A stretch of DNA of 64,000 nucleotides, from NCBI GenBank assembly GCA_027492035.1, contig JAOZFT010000004.1:224001-288000 (forward strand), in the 5' to 3' direction. Numbering within the stretch: the first letter of the stretch is position 1; each line of letters starts with the position of its first letter. This DNA comes from Thermoproteota archaeon. GTDB taxonomy: Archaea > Korarchaeota > JAOZGF01 > JAOZFZ01. Shown one piece after another: positions 267-59,330 of the stretch. The notes under the pieces are model-generated. The model searched no databases, was not told where the DNA came from, and worked only from the letters and a program-made list of their open reading frames with translations. Position numbers and translations under genes: made by a program.

Positions 267-409
267 AACTAGCACACCTTCAAAAACAAATATGTACAAC
301 CTAACATTGAAAACTAAATAAATTTAAAAATTAACCACATAAAAAATATCCTTTGACCCTTAAAAATACTCTAAGAAAAAAGATAAAGGTGCATGAGTCT
401 CTCAAAAAA

Positions 410-6897: not shown

Positions 6898-7609
6898 GGA
6901 AGAAACCTCCTCTTCCCTCTTTCAAAGGAAGGAGCTTCATTCTTTTAAATGAGTAAAATGAAATGACAACTATAAGCAGAAAATAAGATACTTCCAGGTA
7001 TAAAATGTAAATAAACACGGTGTTGGATGGTTCAACACAGAAAGGTTGAGAAGAAAACCCACTAACGATGTCCATAACTACCCTTATTAAGGGGAGAAGT
7101 GACAAGAGCACTATCTCCTTTATAAAGGGCTTAAGTACCCCCTCTAAAAGAACTAATTTTCCAGAAGAGGAAACAGTTAATCCCGACTCCATGCTTTCCC
7201 TAGAAATAGAGCAATATCTTTTGTATAAAAAGAAAACAAAGTATGGGTGAGAGATATAGAATGAAGAAAAGAAAGAAAGGATTAAAAGGTTTACAGTAAG
7301 CCCCCCTCTAAGCAATGAAGAGTAAAAAAGGAAGGAAGGGACAAAAAAAGAATGGAACAGAATTGTTAAAAAAATAATTTTTCCTCTCTCAATCTTTAAC
7401 AAGAACATACCTGAAAGAAAACTTAACATTAGGGAAAAAAGGAAACCTAACAAAGCTGCAGTTATCTCTAAGCTTTTGCTTGGTAACAATTCAAGTAGGG
7501 GTAAGGATAAACCCCCCTTCCCGCACAACATAACAACTAAATATATAATGCAGGAATACAGCAATAAGGAGAATGGCAAGATATACATGTCACCCTTTAA
7601 GCTAGACAA
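6878..7609 (-). CDS. Membrane protein, probably a diverged ABC permease
   Basis: About 5-6 hydrophobic segments; overlaps the ATPase start; vestigial EAA-loop region (SISRESMESGLTVS). Confidence 0.6.
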   Translation of the reverse strand: MSSLKGDMYILPFSLLLYSCIIYLVVMLCGKGGLSLPLLELLPSKSLEITAALLGFLFSLMLSFLSGMFLLKIERGKIIFLTILFHSFFVPSFLFYSSLLRGGLTVNLLILSFFSSFYISHPYFVFFLYKRYCSISRESMESGLTVSSSGKLVLLEGVLKPFIKEIVLLSLLPLIRVVMDIVSGFSSQPFCVEPSNTVFIYILYLEVSYFLLIVVISFYSFKRMKLLPLKEGRGGFFHGNKIS

Positions 7610-7763
7610 AATAAAACCTCCCTCTAAATGTATCCCAGCTTAACCTTTAGCAGGTAATAATTTAAAGAAAGAGTTATTCTTTTAAAAATTATTTAAAGAA
7701 AGGGATGCCAGTTCTAAAGATGAATTTTTCCCTCTTTAAAAAAATAAGAAAAAGAGGGAGGGT

Positions 7764-8087
7764 CTAAGACGTCCTTTTTAAAGTTATTTCAATTAATGAA
7801 ACGTTCCTTTCTCCTCCCTCCCCACCTGTTAAAGTTTCTGTTCCTATTGTCACATTTGACACTTCTACGGCGTCCTGCAGAAACCTATTTTTTGTTATTT
7901 CTGCTACATCCACTGCTTTGCTTATTGATTTGCCTCTAGCCTTTATAATTACTGAATTTTTCCCTTGGTTAAATTGCAGAACAGTTGCTAATACATAATT
8001 CATAGTTGGTGTGCGCCCGTGTCTTTTAAAAACTATAGATCACGGATTACGCCCAATATAGATTTCTCCAGCTTCTTCACTAGTCAC
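7764..8087 (-). CDS. albA: DNA/RNA-binding chromatin protein Alba, split by a 36-nt BHB intron: join(8047..8087, 7764..8010)
   Basis: The spliced product MTSEEAGEIYIGRKPTMNYVLA...IKARGKSISKAVDVAEI...NVSLIEITL is a full 95-aa Alba. RBS GAGGTG lies 7 nt upstream of GTG 8087. The unspliced frame stops at TGA inside the insert. Confidence 0.93.
8011..8046 (-). other. Predicted BHB (tRNA-endonuclease-type) mRNA intron in alba
   Basis: Minus strand: TTGG-GCGT-[AA^T]-CCGTG...CACGG-GCGC-[AC^A]-CCAA. Two 3-nt bulges on opposite strands flank a 4-bp helix, and both outer helices pair. Confidence 0.88.
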
Positions 8088-8159
8088 GTGCATACACCTC
8101 CATCTTTTTTCCTGTTCCTTTGAATGCTCTGACAATGTTTTGAAATACCTATTTATTCC

Positions 8160-8173
8160 TTTATAAAGGTTTC
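8160..8173 (-). promoter_or_regulatory. Candidate BRE-TATA promoter for alba
   Basis: Minus strand GAAACC-TTTATAAA about 75 nt upstream of the start codon. Confidence 0.35.
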
Positions 8174-8314
8174 CTTTATGTTAAAAAGGTTTTATTTTCT
8201 TTTAAAAGATGAAAGATGTTATTGCCTTACTTTCAAAATGAGCCTTTCTTCAGCAAGAAAGTAGGATATCCCTTTATGGCTTCATTAATAAAAACGTTTT
8301 GGAAGGATCTTTTC

Positions 8315-8605
8315 TTAGGCAGTGACTTGTTCCTTCTTTCTATCTTTTTCTGCCCTTATCTTTATTATACCTCTATGGACAGCACACCTTATACAAACAT
8401 ACTTAGTAACCTTATATCTAGGTACCCTCGACCCTTGCTTTATCAACTCTTTCTTTAACTGGTAATCAATTGGAGAGTACCAGAAAGTAACTTTCTTGAT
8501 CTTGTCAGCAGGCATCCTTCTTCCGCAAAAATCGCAAGTAAGATAGCCTGATCTACCTGTTCCGTGACCTTTAGATCTTCCGCCGCTTTTTCTTTTCTTA
8601 GGCAT
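8315..8605 (-). CDS. rps26e: 30S ribosomal protein S26e
   Basis: MPKKRKSGGRSKG, CDFCGR..PADK, CIRCAVHRGIIKIR. Confidence 0.95.
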   Translation of the reverse strand: MPKKRKSGGRSKGHGTGRSGYLTCDFCGRRMPADKIKKVTFWYSPIDYQLKKELIKQGSRVPRYKVTKYVCIRCAVHRGIIKIRAEKDRKKEQVTA

Positions 8606-8620
8606 TTTTTTCCCTCGAAG

Positions 8621-10060
8621 TTAGTAAGATTTACCCAGGAAAATATTAAACTTTGCTTTTTTCCCGCACAGAATACATTTTTTAGATGAGGTTTCTTTTT
8701 GTTTTTCTTCCCAGGGAAAGGGGAACCCAAACACTTTAGCGTTAGTTTTATCTTCTATATCTCTTCCACATTTCTCTTCTCCACACCACCAGGTCTTAAC
8801 TACGAATCCCCTACCAATCTTTTCAACAGCATCTCTCAAATCATGAACTTCAACGATCTTCTCTTGCATCCACTTATCAGCTTTTTCTTTTAATCCCTTT
8901 TGAATCTTATCAAGCAACTCCCTTATTTTTGTAACCAATATGTTTTCCTCAACTCTTACTTTCTGTCTATTATCTCTCCTCACCACCGTTACGCTTTGGT
9001 TGTTCACCTCCTCCATTCCGACTTCAATCCTTAAAGGTATCCCCTTCATTTCCCAAAAGTAAAACTTTGAACCTGGTGTTTCTTCTTCCCTAAAATCTTC
9101 TTTCACCCTGAAGCCTGACTTTAAAAGCTTGTTTTTAATTTTTAGTGAATAACCAAGAACCTTCTCTTTCCCTTCTTTGTAATAAATGGGTATTATCACG
9201 GCATGGTAAGGAGAGATGGAAGGAGGAAGTATTAAGCCGCGTTCATCGGAATGTATAGCAATTACAGCTGCTAAAGGCCGACTAGATATTCCATAACATG
9301 TTTGATAAACATACTCATGTGAACCGTCAGGCTTTAAATACTTAATTTCAAAAACTTTAGAAAAGTTTTGCCCTAAAAAATGTACAGTTCCTATTTGTAG
9401 CCTTTTTCCATTCGGCATAATTGTATCAAAGGCTACTGAGTATTCTGAACCAGCAAATTTATCCCATGCAGGCCTTTTCAAAACAAGGTAAGGTAAAGCT
9501 AACTCATCAAAAATCTTACTATAAACCTGGACAGCTTCCTTTATTTGCTCCTCTGTCTCTTGCCTTGTGGCATGAACAGTGTGAGCTTCTTTAAATGTCG
9601 TAACTTCTCTTACTCGGATAAGAGGACGTGTTGTTTTTGTTTCATACCTAAAAATGTTTACTACCTGGTAATATTTTATTGGTAAATCTTTGTAAGATCT
9701 AATCCATAAAGCATACATTGGGTAAATAGCTGTTTCGCTTGTAGGCCTTAATGCATACTTTATTTTCAATTTATCTTTCCCTCCATGGGTTACCCAGTAC
9801 ACTTCCTCCTCAAAAGCTGTAATATGTTCTGATTCCTTTCTTAGGTTCGTTTCAGGTATTAAAAGTGGGAAAAGAACTTCTTGATGCCCTGTTTCATTTA
9901 AGTATTTACGAATTATTTTTAACATGTTTTCTCGCATAAGGAAACCATAGGGTCTCCAAACCCCCATCCCTTTAATAGGATACCGGTAATCATATATCTC
10001 AGCTGTTTGCAGTATTTCATTAAACCACTCCATAAATTTGCTTTCCTTCTCAATAGCCAA
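8621..10060 (-). CDS. proS: Prolyl-tRNA synthetase (archaeal/eukaryotic type)
   Basis: [44 protein letters not shown]-terminal Zn domain ending KSY. Confidence 0.97.
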
Positions 10061-10076
10061 GGCTACCTACCCTCTC

Positions 10077-10229
10077 CTATTCCCTCCCTAAAAGAATTTT
10101 TTCGGAACAAACAGGACAGAAAACTTTTTTTCTTCTCTTCCTGGGGTTAATGTAAAAAACTGAGTTACATTTTGGGCATTTCATTTCTTTTAATTCACCT
10201 TTCGACCTAACTTTTACAGTTATTAACAT
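10077..10229 (-). CDS. Small Zn-ribbon protein
   Basis: CPKC...CPVC; ATG 10229 follows GAGG; fills the gap between co-oriented genes. Confidence 0.6.
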   Translation of the reverse strand: MLITVKVRSKGELKEMKCPKCNSVFYINPRKRRKKVFCPVCSEKILLGRE

Positions 10230-37736: not shown

Positions 37737-37826
37737 CGCCGCCGGCAGGATTTGAACCTGCGACCATCTGGTGGCTGCACTTAATTTTTAACAGCCAGAC
37801 GCTCCACCGGGCTGAGCTACGGCGGC
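37737..37826 (-). tRNA. tRNA-Asn(GTT) with 16-nt intron at 37/38 (37773..37788)
   Basis: Acceptor GCCGCCG/CGGCGGC; stem TCTGG/CCAGA; helix CTGT/GCAG. Confidence 0.94.
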
Positions 37827-52057: not shown

Positions 52058-52573
52058 GTGAAACCTTGGGAATATATAATTCGAAGCATCTCCCGAAACG
52101 AAATAGATAATGTGATAAGGATTAACCGGGAATGCTTGCCCGAAAATTATTCCCGTTTCTTCTTCGAAGAAATCTTTAGGAATTTCCAAAGGTATTTTTT
52201 AGTAGCCGAATTTAACGGCAAAATTGTTGGTTACGCCATGGCTCGTGTGGAAACAATATTTCATTTGTTTAAATTGCAAAAAAAACTTCATTTAATCTCA
52301 ATAGCAGTGCTTCCATCCTTTAGAAGAATGGGGATCGCCTCTTCACTCCTTAAAAAACTGGAGGAAGAAGCAGTTTCGGCGGACATTTTTTCAATTTTTT
52401 TAGAAGTGAGGGTAAGTAATTACGGAGCTCTTTCATTATACAGAAAGATGGGTTTTAAAATGGTTCAGGTTTTGAAGAAATATTACAGGGACGGCGAAGA
52501 CGCTTATTTAATGGAAAAAATATTGTCGAGGGGAATGGGGCCGCCCGGATTTGAACCGGGGTTTCTCGGATGA
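52058..52573 (+). CDS. ard1: N-terminal acetyltransferase (Ard1/RimI GNAT)
   Basis: CLPENY, HLISIAV...RRMGIA, LEVRVSN..A..LY, YYRDGEDAYLM. Confidence 0.92.
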   Translation: MKPWEYIIRSISRNEIDNVIRINRECLPENYSRFFFEEIFRNFQRYFLVAEFNGKIVGYAMARVETIFHLFKLQKKLHLISIAVLPSFRRMGIASSLLKKLEEEAVSADIFSIFLEVRVSNYGALSLYRKMGFKMVQVLKKYYRDGEDAYLMEKILSRGMGPPGFEPGFLG

Positions 52574-52626
52574 ACACTCTCGAGAGCCCGAGTCTCGAAG
52601 GCTAGACCTAGCTACCCCACGGCCCC
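52536..52626 (-). tRNA. tRNA-Pro(CGG) with 16-nt intron in the variable loop, 45/46 (52563..52578)
   Basis: GGGGCCG/CGGCCCC; stem CGAGA/TCTCG. The 20-nt variable region has helix CTCG/CGAG with AGA and AAA bulges; splicing leaves AGAC. Confidence 0.91.
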
Positions 52627-58655: not shown

Positions 58656-58745
58656 GGGCCGGTGGTCTAGACGGCTATGACGTCGCCCTTACGTGACATT
58701 TGCTGAGTAAGGCGGAGGTCGTGGGTTCGAATCCCACCCGGCCCA
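58656..58745 (+). tRNA. tRNA-Val(TAC) with 16-nt intron at 37/38 (58694..58709)
   Basis: GGGCCGG/CCGGCCC; stem TCGCC/GGCGG; helix CTTA/TGAG. Confidence 0.94.
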
Positions 58746-59330
58746 CTAAATTTTTTTAAGTGAATCCTTAAGTTTTTAACATGGCTTCAACCTTTAACTT
58801 AACTTGATGAGAGTTGCCAATAAATATTCTTACCTTCTTTCAGGATGTGGATGTTCAATAACCTCTCCGCCTCCCCTAATCATGATAGGGTGAGTTAAAA
58901 CCTAAAAGATCACCAAAAAGACTAAAGCCAATAATTACGTATAAAACGCCTTGGTGCATCCTCCCCCATTTTTCATCTCACTTCTCCTTTACTCCCAAAA
59001 TGTTTAAAGTCTGCGTTTAAATAAATACAATTCAAATAAATCCTTCTAGTTTAAAACGCTATGTCTTTGTACAGTTGTACAAACCACTTGCACAAGGAAA
59101 GGTTGACACTGTTGGGGACACCATTCCCAACGTCATTGAAGAGCTTATATCGTAAAAAAGAGGAGGAAATTTACAATAAAATTATAAAACGATTTTGAAG
59201 AGAAGCAGAAAGGACCGACGTTTAGAGCTGGTTTTAGATTTAAAAACGCTCATATGAGAAGTGATATATGGTTGATCCCTCGAATTTATTCTTAAGAAGG
59301 ATTCTTCTGTTACAATTTTAACTAATACAC

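What the first reader, a model, noticed from the sequence alone, without database searches (positions are those of the whole stretch)
7995..8093. tRNA-type (BHB) intron inside the alba mRNA
Seen: the minus strand reads ATC TAT ATT GGG CGT AA|T CCG TGA TCT ATA GTT TTT AAA AGA CAC GGG CGC AC|A CCA ACT ATG AAT TAT. The 36-nt insert (8011..8046) has an in-frame TGA, so the ORF finder reports only a truncated 79-aa Alba. The RNA folds into a strict BHB: exon helix UUGG/CCAA, 3-nt bulge ACA, 4-bp helix GCGU/GCGC, 3-nt bulge AAU, intron helix CCGUG/CACGG. Established: the archaeal splicing endonuclease (EndA) cuts after the second nucleotide of each bulge and RtcB ligates. Applying that rule blind joins AA+A into a Lys codon and gives IYIGRKPTMNYVLA, the canonical Alba IG[K/R]KPxMNY motif. 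The well-documented archaeal mRNA intron is in crenarchaeal cbf5; I know of none in alba, but could not check the literature. Inference: a major chromatin protein here depends on tRNA-splicing machinery for expression.
Basis: partly seen in the sequence, partly recalled or inferred. Interest (0 to 1): 0.95.

Follow-up and report, generated by a model that had tools for sequence, protein, structure and literature searches.

The report
tRNA-type intron splitting the alba gene
The only gene for the chromatin protein Alba in this archaeon is interrupted by a 36-base insert with the shape of a transfer-RNA intron, so the cell most likely has to splice the messenger RNA with its tRNA-splicing enzymes to make the full protein, something reported so far inside the coding region of only one other archaeal gene.

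Summary
On the minus strand, alba is split into exon 1 (8093..8047), a 36-nt insert with an in-frame TGA (8046..8011) and exon 2 (8010..7764). The minimum-energy fold is a strict helix-bulge-helix-bulge-helix: UUGG/CCAA, GCGU/GCGC, CCGUG/CACGG, with bulges AAU and ACA.

Cutting after the second base of each bulge rebuilds a Lys codon that is invariant in 132 of 132 unique relatives. That product is the best-scoring Alba of 378 possible in-frame deletion products. It also matches, over 26 residues across the junction, an uninterrupted Alba from a close relative, P0003.

This is the only alba found in the genome, and it is under purifying selection. The sister genome G001 has an unrelated 62-nt insert 8 nt downstream, with a weaker BHB that also restores the best frame. 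In the same genome cbf5 carries the textbook BHB intron, and a blind genome-wide screen ranks cbf5 first and alba second. EndA and RtcB are encoded.

No RNA data could be obtained, so splicing is inferred. Five literature searches found no alba intron.

The parts
8160..8171 (-). Promoter-like box AACCTTTATAAA upstream of exon 1
   Evidence: Twelve invariant columns between G000 and G001 in the DNA alignment, although synonymous sites are saturated between the two genomes. Calling it a TATA/BRE-type promoter is inference from sequence.
8095..8101 (-). GGAGGTG ribosome-binding-like site in front of exon 1
   Evidence: GGAGGTGTA is identical in G000 and G001. It lies just upstream of the ATG at 8093 and the GTG at 8087. 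No comparable motif precedes the internal ATG at 8003, by my reading.
8047..8093 (-). alba exon 1: 47 nt, 15 codons plus the first two bases of a Lys codon. The start may instead be the GTG at 8087.
   Evidence: The GEIYIG block keeps its amino acids in G001, with changes at synonymous sites, and is present in P0003. Exon 1 adds 18 bits to the Alba HMM score (139.0 against 121.1).
8011..8046 (-). 36-nt BHB intron with an in-frame TGA
   Evidence: It is not alignable to the G001 insert. It is not repeated elsewhere in the genome; other matches are 17 nt or shorter. No Rfam family covers it.
8006..8056 (-). The BHB motif. Outer helix 8056..8053 with 8009..8006. Central 4-bp helix 8052..8049 with 8016..8013. 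5' bulge 8048..8046. 3' bulge 8012..8010. Intron helix 8045..8041 with 8021..8017.
   Evidence: The minimum-energy and centroid folds both give this structure. The geometric scanner finds it as the only hit in the window at this helix quality. It ranks first of 5,012 ORF-joining candidates in the strict genome screen and second of 45, behind cbf5, in the relaxed screen.
7764..8010 (-). alba exon 2: the third base of the Lys codon, then PT-MNYV... to the stop
   Evidence: Pfam Alba at 66.3 bits against a cut-off of 25, profile positions 12-66. Against G001, pN is 0.099 and pS is 0.80 over 59 codons.

Best explanation
The single alba gene of this archaeon carries a 36-nt bulge-helix-bulge (tRNA-type) intron inside the codon for an invariant lysine near the N-terminus.

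The proposed mechanism has four steps.
1. The gene is transcribed from a conserved promoter-like box upstream of exon 1.
2. The pre-mRNA folds into a strict hBHBh' motif built partly from exon sequence.
3. The genome's splicing endonuclease (EndA, here a fused two-unit 378-aa protein) cuts after the second base of each 3-nt bulge.
4. RtcB joins the exons. The mRNA then encodes a full-length Alba of about 95-97 aa, and a 36-nt intron is released, probably as a circle.

Shown here: the motif; the unique fit of its predicted junction to the protein family; the single-copy and selected state of the gene; a second, different BHB insert in the sister genus; an intron-less close relative with the predicted sequence; and the presence of the enzymes and of a working-looking cbf5 intron in the same genome.

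Inferred: that cleavage and ligation actually occur, and that the intron circularises.
For: (1) Structure. The minimum-energy fold is the BHB. It is the only hit of this helix quality in the window. The chance rate is 7.7e-6 per position/length pair genome-wide.

(2) Junction. Of 646 in-frame deletion junctions (378 distinct products) scored with an HMM built from 132 unique uninterrupted Albas, the BHB junction ranks first: 139.0 bits against 121.1 for exon 2 alone.

(3) Invariant residue. The rebuilt codon is a Lys that is present in 132 of 132 unique relatives.

(4) Intron-less relative. P0003 is a 94-aa uninterrupted Alba, 82% identical over exon 2. It is identical to the spliced G000 product over 26 consecutive residues spanning the junction.

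(5) Single copy. One Alba match in G000, which is 93% complete, and one in G001.

(6) Selection. Over exon 2, pN is 0.099 and pS is 0.80. The exon-1 block GEIYIG is kept at the protein level, with changes at synonymous sites. The promoter-like box and the SD lie upstream of exon 1 and are conserved.

(7) Sister genome. G001 is interrupted by an unrelated 62-nt insert. A 4-bp helix with 3-nt bulges is present there, and its junction also ranks first, of 560 distinct products.

(8) In-genome control. [quoted passage not shown] That is the published cbf5 position (PMC2738675 passages).

(9) Blind screen. Of 183,471 relaxed BHB hits genome-wide, 45 join broken frames with a good core helix. cbf5 is first and alba second.

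(10) Enzymes. EndA and RtcB are encoded.
Against: - No RNA evidence of any kind. No sequencing run was listed, so neither the junction nor a circular intron has been seen.
- Only two intron-bearing genomes exist. Their inserts sit at different sites (8 nt apart, or 6 in an alternative register) and do not align. No covariation test of the helices is therefore possible.
- G001's BHB is weak. Its minimum-energy fold does not show a BHB, and the fold is no better than shuffles (z -0.24; 81 of 200). The outer helix pairs at only 3 of 6 positions and the intron helix at 5 of 6. A motif of that grade occurs by chance at 4.4e-4 per pair.
- The loose BHB pattern is common in this AT-rich DNA (326 in the window).
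- The substrate range of this fused EndA is unknown. [quoted passage not shown]
- Exon 2 begins almost at an ATG, so a 79-aa product could be made without splicing.
Confidence: 0.87

Rival explanations
1. The insert is not spliced. The functional product is the 79-aa Alba made from the internal ATG at 8003, and the upstream 17-codon frame is a leader peptide or untranslated leader.
For: Exon 2 starts 7 nt before an ATG, and public gene callers report exactly this 79-aa protein (P0001). There is no RNA evidence for splicing.
Against: The exon-1 peptide block GEIYIG is conserved at the protein level across saturated synonymous divergence, and it is contiguous with MNYV in P0003. All 187 alba loci from other lineages read [IVL]G.K.. 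straight into the M.Y motif. Solved Alba structures align from this strand onwards. The SD-like site precedes exon 1, not the internal ATG. This reading gives no reason for a BHB whose cut sites restore the frame in two genomes.
Confidence: 0.06
2. The ribosome bypasses the insert (a translational hop like phage T4 gene 60), taking off at GGG in exon 1 and landing at the GGG 36 nt downstream.
For: GGG CG occurs both at the end of exon 1 and near the 3' end of the insert, and a stop codon follows soon after take-off. The resulting product ranks third of 378 in the HMM test, at 135.3 bits.
Against: The hop would replace the Lys that is invariant in 132 of 132 relatives with Thr, and P0003 has Lys there. 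In G001 the only matching take-off and landing pair I can read (CAG...CAG) would add five residues. Bypassing is not known in archaea (recalled).
Confidence: 0.02
3. alba is a decaying pseudogene in this family, or the insert is an assembly artefact.
For: The frame is broken by a stop, and both genomes are metagenome-assembled.
Against: Purifying selection acts on both exons. Two genomes of different genera each carry an insert, and the inserts differ. The locus sits on the contig that one search lists with a longest-contig length of 666,448 bases. It is the only alba copy found in either genome. Random decay would not leave a BHB whose cut sites restore the optimal frame in both.
Confidence: 0.03

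Closest known systems
BHB intron in crenarchaeal cbf5 pre-mRNA (Watanabe 2002, Yoshinari 2006 and Yokobori 2009; I read passages of PMC2738675 only)
   Same: It is a short intron inside a protein-coding sequence, defined by a bulge-helix-bulge built partly from exon sequence. It is cut between the second and third bulge residues and needs EndA plus a ligase. It is patchily distributed among related lineages. The same genome carries a cbf5 intron at the published Asp-codon position.
   Different: The host gene is different: a chromatin/RNA-binding protein rather than a pseudouridine synthase. The G000 alba motif is a strict hBHBh', whereas the paper describes most cbf5 motifs as unconventional. 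The cbf5 intron keeps its site in G000, G001 and G002, whereas the two alba inserts sit 8 nt apart with unrelated sequence. cbf5 splicing has cDNA and in-vitro support in the literature; alba has none.
BHB intron in the 5' UTR of Haloferax volcanii HVO_1309 mRNA (PMC7714728; passages read)
   Same: It is an mRNA substrate of the archaeal splicing endonuclease other than cbf5.
   Different: That intron lies in the untranslated leader, so it does not interrupt the reading frame. It was shown by knock-down and in-vitro cleavage.
Archaeal pre-tRNA introns with hBHBh' motifs
   Same: The geometry is identical (3-nt bulges, 4-bp central helix, flanking helices), the size is in range (36 nt), and the predicted enzymes are the same.
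   Different: The motif sits in an mRNA with no tRNA body. One arm of each of the outer and central helices is coding sequence, so it is constrained by both the protein and the fold.

Membership tests
Archaeal BHB (tRNA-type) intron cut by EndA and joined by RtcB | Two 3-nt bulges on opposite strands separated by a 4-bp helix | tested here: met
   G000: GCGU/GCGC with bulges AAU and ACA in the minimum-energy fold and in the scanner. G001: CCAC/GUGG with bulges AAA and UAU, found by the scanner only.
Archaeal BHB (tRNA-type) intron cut by EndA and joined by RtcB | Flanking helices on both sides (strict hBHBh') | tested here: met
   G000 has a 4-bp outer helix and a 5-bp intron helix. G001 meets this only loosely: outer helix 3 of 6 pairs, intron helix 5 of 6, and the BHB is not in its minimum-energy fold.
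Archaeal BHB (tRNA-type) intron cut by EndA and joined by RtcB | Cutting after the second bulge base on each side yields a functional mature RNA | tested here: met
   In silico only. The junction gives the top-scoring Alba (rank 1 of 378 in G000; rank 1 of 560 in G001), an invariant Lys, and identity to uninterrupted P0003 across the junction.
Archaeal BHB (tRNA-type) intron cut by EndA and joined by RtcB | Splicing endonuclease and RtcB ligase encoded by the organism | tested here: met
   EndA: PF01974 twice and PF02778 twice in one 378-aa ORF. RtcB: 578 bits.
Archaeal BHB (tRNA-type) intron cut by EndA and joined by RtcB | Spliced junction and excised (circular) intron seen in RNA | not testable with these tools
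   No sequencing run was listed for the locus, so read laying could not be used.
Archaeal BHB (tRNA-type) intron cut by EndA and joined by RtcB | Helices kept by compensatory change in relatives | tested here: inconclusive
   Only one other interrupted genome exists, with the insert at a different site and not alignable, so no homologous pairs can be compared. For the cbf5 control the central helix does vary compensatorily: CCCU/AGGG, CCUU/GAGG, CCUU/AAGG.
Alba (Pfam PF01918) | Match above the curated cut-off | tested here: met
   66.3 bits against a cut-off of 25 for exon 2 alone, covering profile positions 12-66.
Alba (Pfam PF01918) | N-terminal strand with the G-x-K motif directly before M-x-Y | tested here: met
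   Met only for the spliced reading. The motif is present in 132 of 132 unique relatives.
Translational bypass (T4 gene 60 type) | Matching take-off and landing codons that give the family-typical product in both genomes | tested here: not met
   In G000 the GGG-to-GGG hop would give Thr in place of the invariant Lys. In G001 no pair gives a product of the normal length, by my reading.

The most novel reading that the evidence does not exclude
The codons for Alba's conserved N-terminal lysine loop are a recurrent landing site for BHB introns. Two sister genera would have gained unrelated introns independently, 8 nt apart, while a third lineage (P0003) has none. The intron would then not be neutral. 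It would tie the amount, or the form, of a major chromatin protein to tRNA-splicing capacity: spliced mRNA gives full-length Alba, and unspliced mRNA gives a 79-aa form lacking the lysine strand. That would amount to alternative splicing in an archaeon.
Probability: 0.15. Interest if true: 0.9.

Novelty: new member of a known kind. Interest (0 to 1): 0.72.

Why it matters
Introns inside archaeal protein-coding sequences are reported for a single gene, cbf5. A 2020 paper says so explicitly (PMC7714728). A 2023 review counts two archaeal mRNAs in all and expects more (PMC10485636).

Alba would be a second coding-sequence host, and a prominent one. The interrupted codon aligns with Lys17 of Sulfolobus Alba1, using the offset. 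From memory, that residue lies next to the acetylated Lys16.

The family offers a natural series: 36 nt at one site, 62 nt at a neighbouring site, and no intron at all. That makes gain, loss or sliding of protein-gene introns directly testable.

There is also a practical point. Gene callers report a truncated 79-aa Alba here (P0001), so BHB-aware annotation is needed for such lineages.

Tried and rejected
**Transcript evidence.** The look-up of sequencing runs on window 7000-10100 listed no run and no RNA holder.

**Earlier findings.** A second request sent in the same turn returned a format error. I did not try the tool again.

**More family members.**
- The scans of genome contigs and metagenome contigs returned no further interrupted alba: 79 and 80 other loci, all uninterrupted.
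- The GTDB family holds only G000 and G001. G002 (same order, 71% complete) gave no alba match with the protein or with the Pfam family.

**Short Alba calls of 76-78 aa.** I first suspected P0004, P0006, P0029 and P0077 of marking more introns. For the first three, the matching DNA is L112, L135, L136 and L044, and it reads straight through, so these are late start-codon calls. The DNA for P0077 itself was not found; its nearest locus, L062 at 76% identity, is uninterrupted.

**Other split genes in this genome.** The strict screen gave 59,882 hits and 5,012 ORF-joining candidates. The relaxed screen gave 183,471 hits, of which 45 passed the ORF-joining and core-helix filters. Nothing convincing turned up beyond cbf5 and alba. 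Pairs of long frames such as C9:121424 have a start codon at the junction and look like adjacent genes. The strict screen missed cbf5, so introns with weak outer helices or very short exons may still be hidden.

**Mobile or repeated intron.** Rejected: no second copy exists in the genome.

**Rfam.** No family covers the site. The one match has E = 0.72 and is chance level.

**Read-through of the TGA.** Rejected: the G001 insert is 62 nt, not a multiple of three.

**tRNA genes in the window.** The strict scanner found no hBHBh' in the three ~90-nt tRNA genes. I did not work out their intron structures.

**Papers.** Supplementary files were not consulted. Full lists of predicted archaeal introns in supplements could bear on the novelty claim.

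Full report
**Observation.**
An ATG at 8093 opens a short frame, MHVTSEEAGEIYIGRNP-stop.
- The ORF list gives only this piece and a 79-aa ORF (7764..8003) that starts MNYVLATV. The 79-aa ORF matches Pfam Alba at 66.3 bits, but only from profile position 12 of 66, so the N-terminal strand is missing.
- Between the two pieces lie 36 nt (8046..8011) containing an in-frame TGA.
- Folding 7995..8065(-) gives, as both minimum-energy and centroid structure, a helix-bulge-helix-bulge-helix (-15.7 kcal/mol, z -2.46, 3 of 200 shuffles as good). The outer helix is UUGG/CCAA, the central 4-bp helix is GCGU/GCGC, the 3-nt bulges are AAU and ACA, and the intron helix is CCGUG/CACGG.

**Is it more than chance?**
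- A loose BHB pattern is common in this AT-rich DNA: 326 hits on the two strands of the window, about 1.9e-5 per position/length pair. The shape alone therefore proves little.
- At the helix quality seen here (one G-U, 9 G-C of 13 pairs) it is the only hit in the window. Genome-wide, this grade occurs at 7.7e-6 per pair (2,334 of 302,041,710).
- The stronger argument is that two independent criteria pick the same junction. I built an HMM from 132 unique uninterrupted Alba sequences (187 loci of other lineages). I then scored every in-frame deletion around the insert: 646 junction pairs giving 378 distinct products.
- The junction given by the published cut rule ranks first, at 139.0 bits against 121.1 for exon 2 alone. 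The rule places the cut between the second and third bulge residues (PMC2738675 passages).
- The junction rebuilds a Lys codon (AA+A). That Lys is present in 132 of 132 unique relatives.

**Relatives.**
- Of the 111 alba loci from the first two searches, 107 read straight through [IVL]G.K.. into M.Y. So do all 80 metagenome loci.
- The four exceptions are two genomes fetched twice each: G000 (L001/L002) and its only family-mate G001 (L003/L032).
- G001 reads MASEAEIGEIYIGKKPT, then 62 nt containing a stop, then MNYVLATV. Its insert does not align with G000's and sits 8 nt further downstream, or 6 nt in an alternative register.
- G001's minimum-energy fold does not show a BHB and is no better than shuffles. 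A frame-aware scan does find a 4-bp helix CCAC/GUGG with bulges AAA and UAU, an intron helix pairing at 5 of 6 positions and a weak outer helix at 3 of 6.
- That junction again ranks first, of 560 distinct products from 922 pairs. A motif of this grade occurs by chance at 4.4e-4 per pair, so G001 supports the model but more weakly than G000.
- The large protein collection holds P0003, a 94-aa uninterrupted Alba that is 82% identical over exon 2. Its natural sequence GEIYIGRKPTMNYVLATVLQFNQGKN is identical to the spliced G000 product over 26 residues across the junction.
- The lineage therefore contains three states: a 36-nt intron, a 62-nt intron at a neighbouring site, and no intron.

**The gene is in use.**
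- Only one Alba match exists in G000, which is 93% complete, and one in G001.
- Between G000 and G001, synonymous sites of exon 2 are saturated (pS 0.80) while pN is 0.099 over 59 codons.
- The exon-1 block GEIYIG keeps its amino acids, with changes at synonymous sites.
- A promoter-like box AACCTTTATAAA and the GGAGGTGTA ribosome-binding-like site are conserved upstream of exon 1.

**In-genome control and blind screen.**
- cbf5, the one archaeal gene with a documented coding-sequence BHB intron, is also split in this genome. ORFs of 87 and 223 aa share the TruB_N profile between them.
- A BHB (CCCU/AGGG, bulges AGA and AAA, intron helix CCCCU/AGGGG) removes 23 nt and gives a continuous 314-aa Cbf5.
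- G001 and G002 have 15-nt introns at the same place, with different central helices: CCUU/GAGG and CCUU/AAGG.
- A genome-wide screen that knew nothing about gene identity found 183,471 relaxed BHB hits. Forty-five of them join broken frames with a good core helix, and the screen ranks cbf5 first and alba second.
- The stricter screen (59,882 hits, 5,012 ORF-joining candidates) ranks alba first. Nothing else looked convincing.

**Enzymes.**
- RtcB is present at 578 bits.
- EndA is a single 378-aa ORF with two N-terminal and two catalytic domains.
- Its C-terminal half is closest to separate endonuclease chains of about 180-186 aa (2cv8, 3p1z_B, 3ajv_B, 2zyz_B). Its N-terminal half is closest to their partner chains (2zyz_A, 3iey_B). 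It therefore reads as a fused two-subunit enzyme.
- The same fused frame occurs in 5 of 5 other genomes of the phylum that I sampled.
- Its tolerance for relaxed motifs is unknown. The strict G000 motif should not need any.

**Rivals.**
- *A truncated 79-aa Alba made without splicing.* This cannot be excluded, but it does not explain the conserved exon 1, the position of the SD, or the frame-restoring BHBs.
- *A ribosomal hop from GGG to GGG.* This would give Thr in place of the invariant Lys, and it has no counterpart in G001.
- *Read-through of the TGA.* This is impossible in G001, because 62 nt is not a multiple of three.
- *Pseudogene or assembly artefact.* This conflicts with purifying selection and with two different inserts in two genera.
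- The insert is not repeated in the genome and matches no Rfam family.

**What is known.**
- Five full-text searches found no alba intron.
- Passages read in PMC7714728 (2020) say cbf5 is the only other BHB intron reported in an archaeal mRNA, besides the HVO_1309 5' UTR case that the paper itself reports.
- Passages in PMC10485636 (2023) count two archaeal genes and expect more.
- The reference list of PMC12397907 (2025) cites only the cbf5 papers for protein-coding genes.
- PMC2738675 mentions earlier unconfirmed predictions in other genes, citing a rudivirus paper and a Sulfolobus book chapter that I did not read.
- Supplements were not available.

**Verdict.** This is a real feature and most likely a genuine tRNA-type intron in the alba coding sequence. 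It is a new host gene for a known mechanism. The sequence and comparative evidence is unusually tight, but there is no transcript evidence yet.

Noticed in passing
outside the window: G000:C9:310022-310044 (L195 1494-1516); L196 1547-1561; L197 1547-1561: cbf5 carries a BHB intron at the catalytic Asp codon in G000 (23 nt), G001 (15 nt) and G002 (15 nt), and the central helix differs between them. Across the phylum the TruB_N search suggests a patchy distribution. Of 40 genomes with a match, 7 have in-frame stops inside it and 10 have open frames of only 259-270 aa whose match starts at profile position 11 or later. Only G000-G002 were inspected.
   Followed up: partly
outside the window: G000:C9:442896-444032 (L192 649-1785): The splicing endonuclease is one 378-aa chain with two N+C units. 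Its halves are closest to the separate partner and catalytic subunit chains of solved two-subunit enzymes. A frame of 366-384 aa with two catalytic-domain matches occurs in 5 of 5 other genomes sampled from the phylum.
   Followed up: partly
window 37737-37826 (-), 52536-52626 (-), 58656-58746 (+): Three tRNA genes of about 90 nt, one of which ARAGORN could not assign, probably carry introns. ARAGORN in intron mode calls introns in 16 of the 23 tRNA rows my script parsed, and some calls look doubtful. My strict scanner found no hBHBh' in the three genes in the window.
   Followed up: partly
L112, L135, L136, L044 (proteins P0004, P0006, P0029): Public gene calls of 78 aa starting at MNYV exist for another Alba group, but the DNA reads straight through ...IFIGKKPT|MNYV. 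These are late start calls, not introns.
   Followed up: yes
L003 about 286-294 (-): In G001 the first ATG after the GGAGGTG site is out of frame and opens a short frame of about 8 codons. The alba-frame ATG follows 5 nt later. In G000 a GTG at 8087 is spaced from the SD much as G001's ATG is, so the true start of exon 1 is uncertain.
   Followed up: no
outside the window: G000:C9:520317-520444 (-) and C24:12712-12808 (+): Two high-quality BHB-like motifs share similar arms (CAGC/GCUG with CCCU/AGGG or CCCA/UGGG). They lie where the downstream frame is already open far upstream, so they do not repair a gene. They are unexplained.
   Followed up: no
window 8315-8605 (-) and 8621-10060 (-): The genes upstream of alba on the same strand encode ribosomal protein S26e and an archaeal-type prolyl-tRNA synthetase.
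   Followed up: yes
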